The notes under the pieces were generated by a model. That model had not been told where the DNA came from. It ran no database searches and was given only the letters and a program-made list of their open reading frames with translations. A stretch of DNA of 64,000 nucleotides, taken from Eledone cirrhosa (lineage: Eukaryota). The stretch is from NCBI GenBank assembly GCA_964016885.1, contig OZ024742.1, forward strand, positions 142,414,001 to 142,478,000. The letters are read 5' to 3'. Shown in pieces: positions 3,241-47,663 of the stretch. The position numbers were made by a program, and so were the translations under genes. Each line of letters begins with the position of its first letter. Positions within the stretch are counted from its first letter, which is position 1.

Positions 3241-3838
3241 AATAGAAGTAGCTTTCTGTTAATGTCATTGGCTTAAGTTATTCCCAGTTTTCTCCAGTGA
3301 GGGAATGAAGGTTATGTCCAGCACAGCCCTACCTTCCTGCTAGATTAACACACACACACATACATACATACATACATACATACATACATACACACTTGTA
3401 TACACACACAAGACCAAAGGAAGGGTAAAACTGGGCAGTGAGGTAAAGGAGGAGAAGTAGTAGTAGTAGTAATAGTAGAGTAGCCAAGGTTGATGTGACA
3501 TGAGCCAGCTGGCTCCCACAGCGATGTTAGTCAAAAAACAAGGGTCGACAGAAATACTTTAGGTGTATTTGGCATCAGGGTCAGGCTCCACAGTATATTT
3601 ACCTGAAATACAAGCAGGAGTGATTTGTTCATTTACTGCACGCATACATATATATATTCACACATCACACACATGTAATATACATTCACACATCCCACAC
3701 ATAATATATATCATATCGCATCATATACATCATTCATATACAGCACATTTAATGTATATCATACCACATACATGTAATATATATACATATACCACACGTT
3801 ATATATATCATATCACACAAATGTAATATATATTTATG

Positions 3839-4006
3839 TCACACACATGTAATATATATTTATGTCACACACATGTAATATATATTTATGTCACACACAT
3901 GTAATATATATTCATATCACACACATATAAAATATATTTATGTCACACACATGTAATATATATTTATGTCACACACATGTTATATATATTCATATCACAC
4001 ACATAT
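3839..4006. repeat. 26-bp minisatellite (tcacacacatgtaatatatatttatg) x about 6
   Basis: Direct tandem copies visible. Confidence 0.85.
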
Positions 4007-4156
4007 AATAAGTATTACATTACAACATGTAATAAGCATCATATCATACACAAGTAACACTCATCATGCTCTACAAGGACTTTGTGGACGCTACAACAAC
4101 AACATGTGCATGAGGATAAAAGCAGCATAGCAAAGCAAATAGAATGAAGAGGTAAA

Positions 4157-4356
4157 TTAACACTTTCATAACCATATTTTTAATAAAAGACATTAACTAT
4201 CACATTATCAACCTGGTGTTTGGAACATAACTTAAGAAAGGTTCTTTCATAAAATTATAATGGAAGGTTTTAGATAATTATAAACATTTAAAAATAAACA
4301 GTTATGTCACATAAAACCAAAGGCAGTTTCAGATGGTTTGATATCAAAAGGGTTAA
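4157..4356. mobile_element. piggyBac-like MITE (about 200-260 bp; further copies near 4930-5184, 5267-5457, 6400-6610, 20985-21200, 46298-46548, 46910-47357, 63165-63363)
   Basis: Consensus ends TTAA CCCTTT...AAAGGG TTAA (TTAA target site); shared AT-rich internal sequence. Confidence 0.7.
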
Positions 4357-7300
4357 TAACAACAAAGAAAAATGTAAAATACACGCATTCATGCACTCAC
4401 TCACACATTCATAGACACACATTGTTTTACAAGTTCCTTATATATATATTAAAATAACAGATTAAAATTTAAGCAAAGAATCGCTGCTTTCACCCTTAAC
4501 GGGATCTTTATTTATCCTTCTTTGGATTTTAATCTTCACATTTATTATTATTACTATATATATATATACTCACAACTTGTTGCTGTATTAAGCCCTATGA
4601 TATAGTGAAAGTTCAACTTCCAATCAAATTAACAGATAATAAACTCTACTACAACAAAATATTGAGTACTCTCTACATCCTTAGTTTACATACACTTCAC
4701 ACATATATTGCAGAAAAGCAAGCTAAAAGGCAAAGCAATAAGGTGGTGGTTATTAGAACTTTAAGTATATATAAAGACTTGGAAATGAAGCTGTATTGTA
4801 TTAATAAGGCAGTTAGTAAAGAATTAATTGCCAAATATTCTTCATTATTCAATGCAACAGTAATGTAAAGTTAATGGTTTAGTGTTTTATTCAATGGGAA
4901 ATACAAAACAAATGCCAGTAACAAAAAATGTAACCCTTTTGTTATCATGAAAACACTGCCAAGGATTTTCAAATATTTTTTTTAATATTCAGCAATTTGA
5001 AGGGATTTAGTAAAATAACTAAATTTATCATTATTTATCTCAAATTTAAAACATGACTTCACAAAAGCTCTGACATAAAATTATGATGGAAAGTCCTTGG
5101 ATAAATGTAAACAATTTAAAATAAACAGCTTTATATCATAGAGCTAGGGACAGGTTTAGGCAGGTGTGATATCAAAAGGATTAAACAGAGTTGAGAACCA
5201 ATCTTGAAATATAAAACAAACAAAAAATGTTTCTTTTTAATATATTTAATACTGTTGAGATTATATTTAAGCCTTTCATAACCATATTTCTAATAAAATA
5301 TTCTATCTATGCATTTGGGTTAATTTTTAAAATAATGAAACATTTTGTAAAATAACTAACATTTTCATTATTAAGTTAAAGTTGATTTTTTGAAACATAT
5401 ATTAATAACAAAAAGTTCTTACATAAAACTATGATAGTGGTTTAGTAACAAAAGGGAAAAATAAACAAAAACCAAAAAAGTATAATGTTACCTAAAATAT
5501 AGTAAATCTATATAAATGATTGTAAAAAAAATTAAAAATTAAATGAATGGAGTGATCTGAAGTTATAAACCTGAGAGAGAAAGACTGGAAAGAAAAGTAT
5601 CAGGGTGTTATGTATTTGAGATGATGCTTGAATGTAAATACATTACTAACCTAACAGACAGGATATATACAACTTCACACACACAAACATTCATATATAC
5701 ATACACAACAAAACTATTGATAAAATGAATAAATTTACATGATTATATATAAATATATAATATATGCTCAAAATAACTGATTACAATTATTTCAATAAAT
5801 GAATATACAAAAGATTGTAGAAAGGCACAATCAATGTGGTTCAGGTGTTAGAGCTATTCCTCAAATGGTCATGGAGAAGGTAAACTTAACTACAGTATGA
5901 TCTTTCCATTGATAAGATAAATTACAGTCTACCACTTTCAACAATAGGCTCCACTCACACAACAGGTAAAGTGGTTAGCATTCTAAGAGTTTAAAGCCAC
6001 TCTGTAGCATTTCGATTGAAGTTAACAGTTAACAATGCCTTACCATATATAGGTATGGAACTAAGAAAATGAAAATGGTATATTGTGGTTATACTATAAA
6101 GTGTTCCATAGCCATTTCTAATTCAGGTACATGGCTAGCAATTTGAAGGGAGATGAAAGTTGATTAAAAACATCTGCAGCTGACTGGTACTTTATTTTCA
6201 TTGATCTCAGAGAGATGAAAAACAAAGTTGACCTCGGTGGAAACTGAACTCAGAACTTAGAATAATTACGTGTTCCATAAAGACAAAAAACAGAAACACA
6301 AAAGAAACTAGGAATCTAAAATGATAATGTAGTACTATCCTACCATTATAAAAAAATGGTAAATTGCTAATTATGTCTTCAAAAACCAGAGGTTAATAAC
6401 TAACCTTTTGATTTTCAAATAATTTTGAAAATAATCAAGAATTTGAAGGGGTTTAATAATATAACTTTTTGCTTTTACAGCTGGTGTTTGTAATATACCA
6501 AAGGTTCTTACATAAAATTATAATGGAAGATAAATATAAACACTTTAAAATATATAGCTTTGTATCATAGAACCAGAGATGGTTTATGGGGCTTAATATC
6601 AAAAAGGTTAGAGTAATTGCATCCTATCAAAACATGGAATAATAAAATGGATGAGAGATGAGATGCCAGTCTTTCATAAGTGATATTACTAGACAATCTG
6701 GGTTCATTTCGTTTTAGTTGTCTGGTGCCAGAGAAAATGCAGTACTCAGAATTAAGTGTATGGCCTACCGAGTGGCAAAATTAGGTGCCTGAAGTGGATT
6801 TGCACTCAGTGTCCATGATCTAGTTGCTTAACACCTTATCTATTAAGCCATTTTATCAGCTCCAAAAAAATTATACTTTTCAAAATTGTTTGAGGAAAGC
6901 CAGTACAAATAAAGGAGTGAAAATGGCATTGAAGTAAAACTGTAACTTCATTCCTTTATTTGTATTTTACTGGCTTTCTCATATTTCACAATGCTTCGTA
7001 TATAAACTATACTACTCAATACTTTATTTTTGTTCTTTATATAATTTGTTAGAATTTAACAATGGGCTGAAACTGAATGGAATTAATAGCATACAAGAAT
7101 TATCTTGTACACAATGATATATAACATTATTTAATAATCATGATATATATATATTTTACTGTTGAAGTAACTTCTACAGCACTATAACCATTTCATTCAT
7201 AAGAAATCATCAGGAAAGTCTAGATGATTTCTTAGGAATAAAACAGTTCTAGTCATTTCTTTAATAAAATAGCCCTATAATCTAACAAACTGATTACCTT

Positions 7301-14506: not shown

Positions 14507-14509
<3 letters not shown>

Positions 14510-14690
14510 TTTAATATAGAAATGGCTTCTACAGTACTAGAACTGTTTCATTCGAAGGAAATCATTTCCTGATGATTTCCTTCGAATGAAACACTTCTAG
14601 TCCTGTAGAAACCATTTCTATATTAAATATTTATACTCTGCTATGTATTGAGTACCTTACTTACTGTGGTTACTCCTGATTGAACCCGGG
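14507..14690 (+). repeat. About 124-bp foldback palindrome plus tail (related copies at about 7165-7265 and 57578-57705)
   Basis: atatttaatatagaaatggcttctacag...ctgtagaaaccatttctatattaaatat; next to (TA)n. Confidence 0.75.
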
Positions 14691-14774
14691 ATACACACAC
14701 ACATACATATATAGACCACTGATGATGGATAGTCCTGGCTTCTATTTCTAATTCTTCATTTTAATTTATATATA

Positions 14775-34632: not shown

Positions 34633-34661
<29 letters not shown>

Positions 34662-34665
<4 letters not shown>

Positions 34666-34825
34666 AACCAGTAAGACCCCGACGGCTGAGCTGAAGCTGT
34701 TTCGTCGAAACGGCTTGAGCTCAGCCGTCGGGGTTTTACTGGTTCCTATTACCCACTCTACTACCCCAAGTATTGAGTACTTTGGTGCGTTATGGTCCAC
34801 CTGGTTCCTTACCACATTTCCTTCG

Positions 34826-34826
<1 letters not shown>
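34662..34826 (+). mobile_element. Foldback palindrome plus tail element in (TA)n (probable Penelope-like remnant), copy 1
   Basis: About 88-bp near-perfect palindrome 34661-34749 followed by a 77-bp tail; flanked by TA tracts. Confidence 0.65.
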
Positions 34827-34866
<40 letters not shown>

Positions 34867-34927
34867 TATATATATATGTACATATATATATATGTACATA
34901 TATATATATATAAAAGAACCAATGTTT

Positions 34928-34993
<66 letters not shown>

Positions 34994-44241: not shown

Positions 44242-44387
44242 AAGTTGTAGATGTTAAAGAGTCCTTTATTAACAAAGCTGTGATACATATTTCAATGACA
44301 ATCATGGTCACTTGATTGTGACCATGATCGTTATTGAAATATGTATCACAGCTTTGTTAATAAAGGGCTCTTTAACATCTACAACTT
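44242..44387. repeat. 146-bp near-perfect inverted repeat (70-bp arms, 6-nt loop)
   Basis: aagttgtagatgttaaagag...ggtcac ttgatt gtgacc...ctctttaacatctacaactt. Confidence 0.9.
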
Positions 44388-44510
44388 CACGTTTTCCACT
44401 CTCTCTCCCCTTATATATATATATATTTATATATATGTCTAATGGTAGCTAAGATGTTTCCATAGGCGGTATGCCGGTTGAGCACTCTATGCTCCTATGG
44501 AGCAGAGTAT

Positions 44511-44804
44511 TATAGAATGGAAAACGAAAAATCAGTGATGCATCGGAACTCAATTTATTATGTTACAATTGTTTCCCCGGCAAACAGCTTGAGGTGCGAT
44601 CTGTGTGTGGATCGACCCGACTCTAAACTCGCAGGCTCCTCGGACATGCTCCGAAATCAATAGCCATATCCGAGGAACCTGCAAGTTTAGAGTCAGGTCG
44701 ATCCACACACAGATCGCACCTCGAGCTGTTCGCCGGAGAAACAATTGTAACACACAATAAATCGAGTTCCGATGCATCACTGATTTTTCGTTTTCCATTC
44801 TATA
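44511..44804. repeat. 294-bp inverted repeat / foldback MITE-like element
   Basis: tatagaatggaaaacgaaaaatcagtgatgcatcgg...ccgatgcatcactgatttttcgttttccattctata; arms about 138 bp. Confidence 0.9.
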
Positions 44805-44825
44805 TATATATGGACACACACACAC

Positions 44826-46229: not shown

Positions 46230-47425
46230 CTACAAATATTAAATCATTAACCTTTTAACTTCAGTGAGCAAAATAAGATCATAGCAAAATGATTTCATTA
46301 ACATTTTTGTTAACATATTTCTAATGAAAAACACCTAGTGTTCAAATAATTTTGAAAATAATCAAGAATTTACAGGGATTTAGTAATATAATTTTTTCAT
46401 TATTAAGCTGGTATTAGGAATATAACAAAGGTTTTTACATAAAAATTATGATGGAAAGGATTTAGATAAACATAAACACTTTAAAACAAACAGCTTTGTA
46501 TTGCTAAACGACAACTAGTTTCAGATGGTTTAGAATCAAATGGGTCAAAATTTAGAAGTCACCTCTCTTTTTAATTCAACAAGTACAAAAGAGTCTGTTA
46601 GCCATACCACAGTCTCTTTCAAGCAATGAGACTAAAGAAATACGAAGAATGTATGCTTTTGCCTACTTAAACTACCACAAAGTCTTTGAATGGTTTCAAA
46701 TAACTTTACAAAATAGACCTTATTTGCTGTATACTGAAAAATAAATCTGAATCCTTTGCTATTAAAACTACCGTGTCGGATCTATAGACCTTCAAATTAC
46801 TGGTATAGTGCATGTGATGGACTTCCTCATCGATGCAGTTTCAATCACAAGGCTTGTGACAACCATAGGCTATGATAGAAAACACTAAATGTACAACCTA
46901 TGTACTACCTGTGTTTTAACTTTGAAAATAATCAGGAATTTGAAGGGATTTAGTAAAATTACTAATTTTTTAATTAAGTTGATTTTTTTAAAAATATATA
47001 TGAACTAACGATTCTTGCATAAAATTATAATGGAAGGTTTTAATTTAAATACAGATGCTTTAAAATAAGGAGGTTTATATTAACAAGAAGTAGTCTTGTA
47101 TGGTTCAGTATGAAAAGTTTTAAAAGACTGAAGCAAATTTCTTGAAAAACACTGCCTATGATTTTCAAAAAATTTCGAAAATAATCAGGAATTTGAAGGG
47201 ATTTACTAAGCTGGTGTTTGGAGCATAACTTAACAAGGTTCTTATAAAGGATTTTGATGGAAATTACTTTTAGATAAATATAAACACACTAAAATAAACA
47301 GTTTGGTCAAATAGAATTTGCAGTGTATTTCAGACAGTTTGATATCAAAAGGCTTAACCACTGTCATGTATCCATGAAACTCACTCTCTCTCTCTATATA
47401 TATACATTATATATATATATATATA

Positions 47426-47583
47426 GCGAGGGAAAAGTGGCAAGGAACCAGGTGGACCATAACGCACCAAAGTACTCAATACTTAGGGTAGTAGAGTGGG
47501 TAATAGGAGTAAGTAAGACCCCGACGGCTGAGCTCAAGCCGTTTCGAAACGGCTTGAGCTCAGCCGTCGGGGTCTTACTTACT

Positions 47584-47588
<5 letters not shown>
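47426..47588 (-). mobile_element. Foldback palindrome plus tail element in (TA)n, copy 2
   Basis: Perfect 86-bp palindrome 47503-47588; tail is the reverse complement of the copy 1 tail. Confidence 0.65.
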
Positions 47589-47652
<64 letters not shown>

Positions 47653-47663
47653 ACACACACACA

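What the first reader, a model, noticed from the sequence alone, without database searches (positions are those of the whole stretch)
47426..47588. Foldback elements with co-varying arms and a half hammerhead ribozyme (copies at 34662-34826 and 47426-47588)
Seen: two copies of a about 165-bp element, each embedded in (TA)n, made of a spacerless palindrome plus a unique tail. Where the copies differ, both arms change together (copy 1 taggaaccagtaa...ttactggttccta; copy 2 taggagtaagtaa...ttacttactccta), so each hairpin was regenerated from its own template. The arm reads CGAA-ACGGCT-tgagctc-AGCCGT-C-ggggt, i.e. GAAA + stem III + GUC cleavage triplet + stem I strand of a type I hammerhead, while the CUGAnGA half is replaced by the inverted copy. 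Known: Penelope-like elements carry hammerheads in their pLTRs and often leave inverted 5'-truncated ends. Inference: these are products of fold-back or self-primed insertion of a PLE or retrozyme-like RNA, with the turn-around point at the ribozyme core, possibly an undescribed non-autonomous family.
Basis: partly seen in the sequence, partly recalled or inferred. Interest (0 to 1): 0.72.

Follow-up and report, generated by a model that had tools for sequence, protein, structure and literature searches.

The report
Back-to-back Penelope retroelement stubs
Both hairpins are short back-to-back stubs of a young Penelope-like jumping gene, among more than 11,000 in this genome, and they likely form when each cut DNA end primes its own copy of the element's RNA and both copies run off the RNA's predicted start, which would make an open question about how these elements insert directly testable.

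Summary
Both copies are real. They are stubs of a young Hydra-type Penelope-like element (PLE): 3.53-kb unit, 717-aa ORF with telomerase-like RT and C-terminal GIY-YIG, and a complete U3:A8 hammerhead in the pseudo-LTR. At least 11,127 such head-to-head centres exist. In 99 of 104 pairs one arm ends 20 nt and the other 100 nt past the predicted ribozyme cut, both at TAT in (TA)n. The turn is usually not at the ribozyme core: 157 of 198 arms stop at -45..-34, and 87% of arms genome-wide stop between -35 and -48, about 30 nt below a TATA-like box; a second family stops at TATA+30. Either arm may be the longer and junctions are blunt, which argues against fold-back self-priming. Short and long copies share haplotypes, so this is not a separate non-autonomous family. 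Best reading (inferred, no RNA seen): both target ends prime, run off the RNA start, and are joined. Inverted ends, tails and hammerheads are known for PLEs; the start-bounded stub is not in the papers I found. This scan noted the same architecture on other DNA of this genome.

The parts
47426..47588 (-). Copy 2: whole head-to-head PLE stub (tail-less arm + tailed arm + tail)
   Evidence: (row W2)
47544..47588 (+). Copy 2 tail-less arm, positions -25 to +20 of the pseudo-LTR; GAAA at 47546-47549, predicted cleavage after 47568; ends in TAT shared with the (TA)n tract
47503..47547 (-). Copy 2 tailed arm, -25 to +20; 3' half of the hammerhead, predicted cleavage after 47523; shares the 4-nt centre 47544-47547 with the other arm
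47426..47502 (-). Copy 2 tail = 5' leader of the parent unit (+21 to +97), followed by TAT
47586..47653 (.). (TA)n target tract, tail-less side of copy 2
47395..47425 (.). Interrupted (TA)n target tract, tail side of copy 2
34661..34829 (+). Copy 1: whole head-to-head PLE stub
   Evidence: row L006
34661..34704 (-). Copy 1 tail-less arm, -24 to +20, with two private substitutions
34703..34749 (+). Copy 1 tailed arm, -27 to +20; GAAA at 34707-34710, predicted cleavage after 34729
34750..34829 (+). Copy 1 tail = 80-nt 5' leader of the parent unit, last 3 nt shared with (TA)n
34635..34663 (.). (TA)n target tract, tail-less side of copy 1
34827..34989 (.). (TA)n target tract, tail side of copy 1

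Best explanation
The two hairpins are short head-to-head insertions of a Hydra-type Penelope-like retroelement, likely made when the element's enzyme cuts both strands of a (TA)n tract and each free 3' end primes reverse transcription in the RNA leader, one at +20 and one at +100, after which both cDNAs likely run off the RNA's predicted 5' end and are blunt-joined. Shown: parent element, ORF, full hammerhead in long copies, the two fixed outer ends, the one-tail-per-insertion rule, the sharp inner stop zone (-45..-35), blunt junctions, 12-16-nt duplications where the target is interrupted. Inferred: double priming, that the stop zone is a transcription start about 30 nt below a TATA-like box, and end-joining. 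The hammerhead is halved because the predicted start lies inside its long loop II, not because the ribozyme directs the fold; these two window copies, which turn at -24 to -27, would be further-trimmed members. Long and tandem copies would come from read-through or circular templates (inferred). Confidence in PLE origin alone is about 0.98; the figure given is for the mechanism.
For: Parent: full unit with 784-codon open frame in L031; Hydra motifs conserved in 17 aligned homologues; profile match to a canonical PLE, probability 97%; model pLDDT 92.7, top fold hit TERT. Outer ends: 99 of 104 close pairs are tailed + tail-less, 1 tail-less on both sides, 4 unclassified. Independence of the arms: tail-less longer 40, tailed longer 43, equal 16; longer by 3 nt or more 26 vs 27; in long insertions too the tail-less arm can be much the longer (about 2.0 kb vs 0.55 kb in L034). 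Overlaps 0:21, 1:23, 2:2 of 46 match blunt-join simulations. Stop zone: 157 of 198 arms at -45..-34, 1 beyond; genome-wide 35,249 arms reach -35, 4,608 reach -48, 2,842 reach -89, loss per nt 0.157 then at most 0.012. TATA-like 8-mer at -70, main peak at A-41. Second family: 18 arms start at exactly TATA+30 and 16 at +31, 87 of 96 at +30 or later. 7 of 8 one-base junction inserts are C, as a copied cap would give (p 0.035 if either arm's cap counts). In vitro a PLE enzyme nicks and extends both strands and starts at two internal sites whose distance is the tail (PMC11167929).
Against: No RNA was seen; the start site is inferred from DNA only. Arms do not start on purines more than chance (20 of 46; null means 13.5-17.5, p 0.03-0.27). 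Of 70 arms that run on into the ORF leader, 33 extend beyond the fetched flank and only 3 of the other 37 stop at -45..-35 (Poisson p 0.025), so most long cDNAs do not stop there. The TATA-like box has a substitution in one subfamily, and the Drosophila Penelope promoter is TATA-less (PMC2377424). A weak predicted hairpin in loop II has its apex at -46..-49, so structure could also set the ceiling. All one-base C inserts fall on one arm's side, unexplained. No ORF was found for the second family in 4 longer copies. The 99 pairs are not a random sample (see full report).
Confidence: 0.68

Rival explanations
1. Double priming as above, but the inner ends are set by RNA structure or processing (stalling or cleavage in the apical hairpin of loop II), not by a capped start.
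For: MFE fold puts a small stem with its 3' strand at about -45..-37 and its loop just beyond; purine-start test negative; long cDNAs mostly pass the zone.
Against: The fold is no more stable than shuffles (z 0.16); stalls are expected at the foot of a stem (recalled), not after it; long arms pass it freely; the second family stops at TATA+30 with different sequence.
Confidence: 0.14
2. Fold-back self-priming: one cDNA primed at the tail snaps back on itself and copies itself to +20.
For: Arms concordant in 94 of 99; the natural sequence at -30..-15 is itself a hairpin and 1 of 99 pairs (L159) has exactly the junction this predicts; 3 of 99 share a perfect 4-nt centre, as window copy 2 does.
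Against: Predicts the tailed arm is always the longer; the tail-less arm is longer in 40 of 99 and by kilobases in long copies. Needs pairing at the junction; overlaps are at chance level. At least one pair has arms of different subfamilies at a multi-base site (L137).
Confidence: 0.07
3. A self-propagating non-autonomous family: the short palindrome is itself transcribed and recopied whole.
For: Very high copy number; 16 junction classes recur.
Against: 75 junction classes in 99 pairs; recurrent ones cross subfamilies and occur in mirror image; the main haplotypes are shared by short and long copies; no A-to-G clusters.
Confidence: 0.06
4. A DNA transposon (MITE or foldback) with terminal inverted repeats.
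For: Palindrome bounded by TA.
Against: Tail lies outside the repeat, centre varies, sequence is the pseudo-LTR of an RT element, duplications are 12-16 nt and not always present.
Confidence: 0.01

Closest known systems
Hydra clade of C-terminal EN+ Penelope-like elements (Craig et al. 2021, PMC8557442; passages, sections 11 and 15, supplement part 2 of 59 and term searches seen)
   Same: Single ORF, RT then GIY-YIG; DKT, RW(R/K), CxCx5C linker, CxxC and CxH around E and N, no CCHH; (TA)n target; hammerhead in the pseudo-LTR; inverted 5'-truncated copy and a tail at one end.
   Different: Unit is 3.53 kb (theirs generally under 3 kb); tail 80 nt (30-40 described); hammerhead is U3:A8 with a 6-7-bp stem III and about 45-nt loop II, unlike all Hydra rows in their table including Hydra-1_Obim; most copies are start-bounded mini-palindromes, which the parts I read do not describe.
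PAc / Poseidon of Anolis in vitro (Frangieh et al. 2024, PMC11167929; parts 1-2 of 4 read)
   Same: Both strands nicked and extended, AT-rich target, two internal start sites that define the tail, uncleaved RNA used as template.
   Different: They report start sites not homologous to the cut DNA and no strand difference; here both sites end in TAT matching the target and each insertion uses one of each site. They do not explain inverted ends or inner junctions.
PLE minimal hammerheads (Cervera and de la Pena 2014, PMC4209133; abstract and Results read)
   Same: Type I hammerhead in pLTRs, U3-A8 covariant (Schistosoma Cercyon), pairs of motifs on opposite strands 100-700 bp apart, palindromic loop III.
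   Different: Here helix III is long enough to fold as a monomer in prediction and loop II holds the predicted transcription start; the stubs keep only the 3' half.
L1 twin priming (recalled; only search listings seen)
   Same: Both target strands prime; the two cDNA ends are joined, giving an inversion.
   Different: In L1 the two pieces cover adjacent parts of the RNA at variable sites; here both cover the same stretch from two fixed sites 80 nt apart.
Non-LTR retrozymes (bioRxiv 10.64898/2026.07.22.740005; part 1 of 5 read)
   Same: Type I hammerhead, PLE link, non-coding.
   Different: Retrozymes are tandem direct repeats with complete hammerheads; these stubs are single inverted units with half a hammerhead.

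Membership tests
Penelope-like element (EN+) | Single ORF with telomerase-like RT | tested here: met
   717 aa from ATG, YRDD motif invariant DD; top Foldseek hit TERT E 1.8e-8. Pfam gave no hit for this protein.
Penelope-like element (EN+) | C-terminal GIY-YIG endonuclease | tested here: met
   Profile alignment to a Pfam-positive canonical PLE through RT, thumb and EN, probability 97%, E 6e-11; 1 of 10 close homologues has a sub-threshold GIY-YIG hit.
Penelope-like element (EN+) | Pseudo-LTR from partial tandems, direct or inverted, with a tail at one end | tested here: met
Penelope-like element (EN+) | Hammerhead motif in the pseudo-LTR | tested here: met
   Three-way junction in MFE fold; 2,842 exact matches to the 5' half. 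Rfam did not detect it.
Hydra clade | DKT, RWK-like motif, CxCx5C linker, CxxC/CxH, no CCHH | tested here: met
   Motif list; alignment (RWR here, RWK/RWR in homologues); missing internal CxxC seen.
Hydra clade | (TA)n insertion preference | tested here: met
Hydra clade | Placement in the Hydra clade by RT phylogeny with named references | not testable with these tools
   No named Hydra reference proteins could be brought into a tree; homologues are unnamed.
Type I hammerhead ribozyme (active) | Self-cleavage | not testable with these tools
   Only indirect: 4 of 37 long arms stop at -3..+2, which a stall at stem III would also give. The window copies lack the 5' half and cannot cleave in cis.
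Non-LTR retrozyme | Tandem direct repeats each with a complete hammerhead | tested here: not met
   Stubs are single inverted units with half a core.
MITE / foldback DNA transposon | Terminal inverted repeats at both ends, fixed short duplication | tested here: not met

The most novel reading that the evidence does not exclude
The commonest product of this PLE is a twin-primed stub whose centre records the RNA's capped start, and that start lies inside loop II of the hammerhead: the promoter splits the ribozyme, so the mRNA's 5' end carries only a substrate half that cannot cut off its own cap but can be cut in trans by the 5' half from a downstream pseudo-LTR, switching the RNA between a capped template (stubs, translation) and a processed or circular template (long and tandem copies). 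The two halves cofold into the hammerhead in prediction (-27.7 kcal/mol).
Probability: 0.25. Interest if true: 0.78.

Novelty: new variant of a known kind. Interest (0 to 1): 0.5.

Why it matters
How PLEs make their tandem/inverted ends, and what their hammerheads do, are named as open questions in PMC8557442 (section 15). A young family with intact ORFs and over 11,000 near-identical stubs gives exact predictions: two priming sites, one used per strand; a transcription start at -45..-35; blunt joining; about 14-nt stagger. All can be tested with the published in vitro system or 5' mapping. The stubs also seed the genome with thousands of perfect hairpins and would be mis-annotated as MITEs or miRNA precursors.

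Tried and rejected
Rfam found no hammerhead in the window or in the parent; its above-threshold Plastid-psbJ-2 hit on copy 2 is a hairpin + (TA)n artefact. Pfam and PDB sequence searches missed the protein. Idea that a T/C difference at +5 marks 5' versus 3' pseudo-LTR templates: rejected, the variant is rare and symmetric (85 tail-less, 80 tailed) and its prominence came from my query. Microhomology joining: not above chance. Purine-start test: not significant. A-to-G editing marks: none in 99 pairs. Splice acceptor at -41/-40 as the boundary: rejected because arms continue to -45 in genomic sequence. No ORF found for the second family. Literature: Penelope + twin priming (3 papers, listings only, none on PLE mechanism by title or abstract start), Penelope + pLTR + transcription start + promoter + inverted, Penelope + palindrom + octopus + retrotranspos, six-term search, MITE-like search, 2024+ structure search gave no description of start-bounded stubs; subscription papers, Repbase/Dfam and most of the Craig supplement (cut file) were not seen and may hold this family. 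Sequence and near-place look-ups in the scan's notes were empty.

Full report
Coordinates below: 0 is the first base after the predicted hammerhead cleavage triplet in the parent element.

Observation. Copy 2 is a perfect 43-bp palindrome; copy 1 has 44-bp arms with 3 mismatches. Rfam reports no hammerhead. The window is G000:C3:142414001-142478000 of a 3.0-Gb genome. That the host is an octopod is my recall from its SINEs and was not tested.

The parent. A search with one arm plus tail gave 863 candidates, 40 scored, all 98-100% identical. Four of the 30 fetched loci ran on upstream. Extending them gave a full unit in L031: period 3,531 bp, ATG at +190, 717-aa ORF, 1.2-kb 3' region, and a last pseudo-LTR that stops at +20 in (TA)n. 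The 'unique tail' is the leader between +20 and +100 of the next unit. The protein has no Pfam hit but aligns by profile to a canonical PLE, folds confidently with telomerase RT as top hit, and carries the Hydra-clade motifs listed in PMC8557442 section 11. A tandem array holds 4 full units differing by 2-7 substitutions, each with an open frame, so the family is young. The parent hammerhead is complete: stem I, UUGAGAA core (U3:A8, a variant reported in PMC4209133), stem II with a long loop, GAAA, stem III with a palindromic loop, GUC. The fold is the right shape but no more stable than shuffles (z 0.16).

Anatomy of the stubs. I parsed loci L001-L030 and L036-L165 plus the two window copies. 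This sample is mixed: 30 loci chosen by likeness to copy 1, 60 chosen for a rare variant, 70 taken in chromosome order. Arms without a partner within 140 nt were left out of the pair counts (88 solo rows with duplicates, many of them long copies). Of 104 close head-to-head pairs, 99 have one arm ending at +20 and one carrying the tail, 1 has two tail-less arms, 4 were unclassified. BLAST printed the tail end as +103 because it extends into (TA)n; the true end is +97, or +100 with the shared TAT. Both outer ends finish in TAT that matches the target. Where the microsatellite is interrupted near the insertion, 7 loci show an exact 12-16-nt duplication (5 of 14 nt) and 1 of 26 nt, among 75 rows with an interruption within 25 nt; most rows are uninformative and several with a close interruption show none.

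Where the turn lies. 157 of 198 arms start at -45..-34, 40 are shorter, 1 reads -47 within an ambiguous overlap. Genome-wide, free of my sampling: 35,249 arms reach -35, 4,608 reach -48 and 2,842 reach -89 (the patterns cover somewhat different subfamilies, the last fewest). 11,127 centres have both arms reaching -34 with 24 nt or less between. A TATA-like 8-mer begins at -70; the main peak, A-41, is 29 nt below it in an initiator-like context, and the ceiling, A-45, is in another (consensus and spacing recalled). A second, unrelated hammerhead family found at window 14507-14695 has the same form, and of 96 arms 18 start exactly 30 nt below a TATAAATA box, 16 at 31, and 87 at 30 or later. I found no ORF for it.

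How the arms are made. Fold-back of the tailed cDNA requires the tailed arm to be the longer. It is in 43 pairs; the tail-less arm is longer in 40, 16 are equal; in the 42 pairs taken in chromosome order, 20 vs 14. Long insertions show the same freedom. Overlaps at 46 insert-free junctions equal blunt-join simulations. Only L159 has the junction that snap-back at the natural -30..-15 hairpin predicts. Three pairs mix subfamilies (L137 at several bases, L112, L062); this may mean two RNA molecules or later conversion, so one versus two templates stays open. There are 75 junction classes in 99 pairs, repeats cross subfamilies and appear mirrored, and the main haplotypes occur in both short and long copies: stubs are made afresh from autonomous lineages.

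Against my reading. No RNA evidence. Purine-start test not significant. Among 70 arms that continue into the ORF leader, 33 pass the fetched flank and only 3 of 37 stop in the zone; 4 of 37 stop at -3..+2, which could be ribozyme-cut templates or stalls at stem III; one of the 37 borders unreadable sequence. So long copies need templates that begin further upstream or are circular. The TATA-like box is altered in one subfamily and Drosophila Penelope has a TATA-less internal promoter (PMC2377424 passages and Discussion). A weak hairpin apex coincides with the ceiling.

Comparison with what is known. Inverted 5'-truncated copies, tails, (TA)n targeting and hammerheads are described for PLEs, and a different Hydra family is listed for Octopus bimaculoides (PMC8557442). 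Two-strand extension and two internal start sites are shown in vitro (PMC11167929). The mechanism of the inverted ends is stated as open. My searches found no account of start-bounded mini-palindromes; unseen supplements and repeat databases may hold one. I recorded my reading before opening the scan's notes; one search then showed several unchecked notes with the same architecture and the same run-off idea on other DNA of this genome. They are not independent support. One suggested editing marks; I found none in my 99 pairs.

Verdict. A real, very abundant product of a known class. New family, and a sharply defined variant of the known inverted end that yields testable predictions. Interest 0.5.

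Noticed in passing
window 14507-14695: Second hammerhead-bearing head-to-head family with tail, canonical CUGAUGA core, (CA)n on the tail side; 623 exact matches to a 35-nt pattern; inner ends pile at TATA+30; no ORF found.
   Followed up: partly
window 44242-44415: Palindrome with 70-nt arms and a short tail ending in (TA)n; probably another family of the same form.
   Followed up: no
window 44420-44805: Palindrome of about 150-nt arms with an 80-90-nt tail between (TA)n tracts; same form, no hammerhead core identified.
   Followed up: no
window 14645, 34770, 47482 (also 4659): An 11-nt motif in a small predicted stem-loop is shared by the tails of both families; candidate enzyme-binding or priming signal.
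   Followed up: no
L226-L228 (G000:C1:91469500-91496900): Four full tandem units with 2-7 differences; at the inner junction a 55-bp piece of the ORF is repeated about 64 times, as if the enzyme stuttered.
   Followed up: partly
G000:C2:356030071-356031890: Seven matches to the leader/ORF junction at a 299-bp period: a short tandem derived from the element, possibly a retrozyme-like array in the making.
   Followed up: no
L033:7573-8859 and 3524-4746: Other PLE ORFs of the canonical type (Pfam GIY-YIG, weak RVT_1) next to a long copy.
   Followed up: no
L111, L152: 23-nt deletions of stem III between two identical 7-mers, likely template slippage.
   Followed up: no
window 1386, 19711, 21328, 24632, 29253, 38724, 55843: Dispersed SINE-like repeat family (D18).
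   Followed up: no
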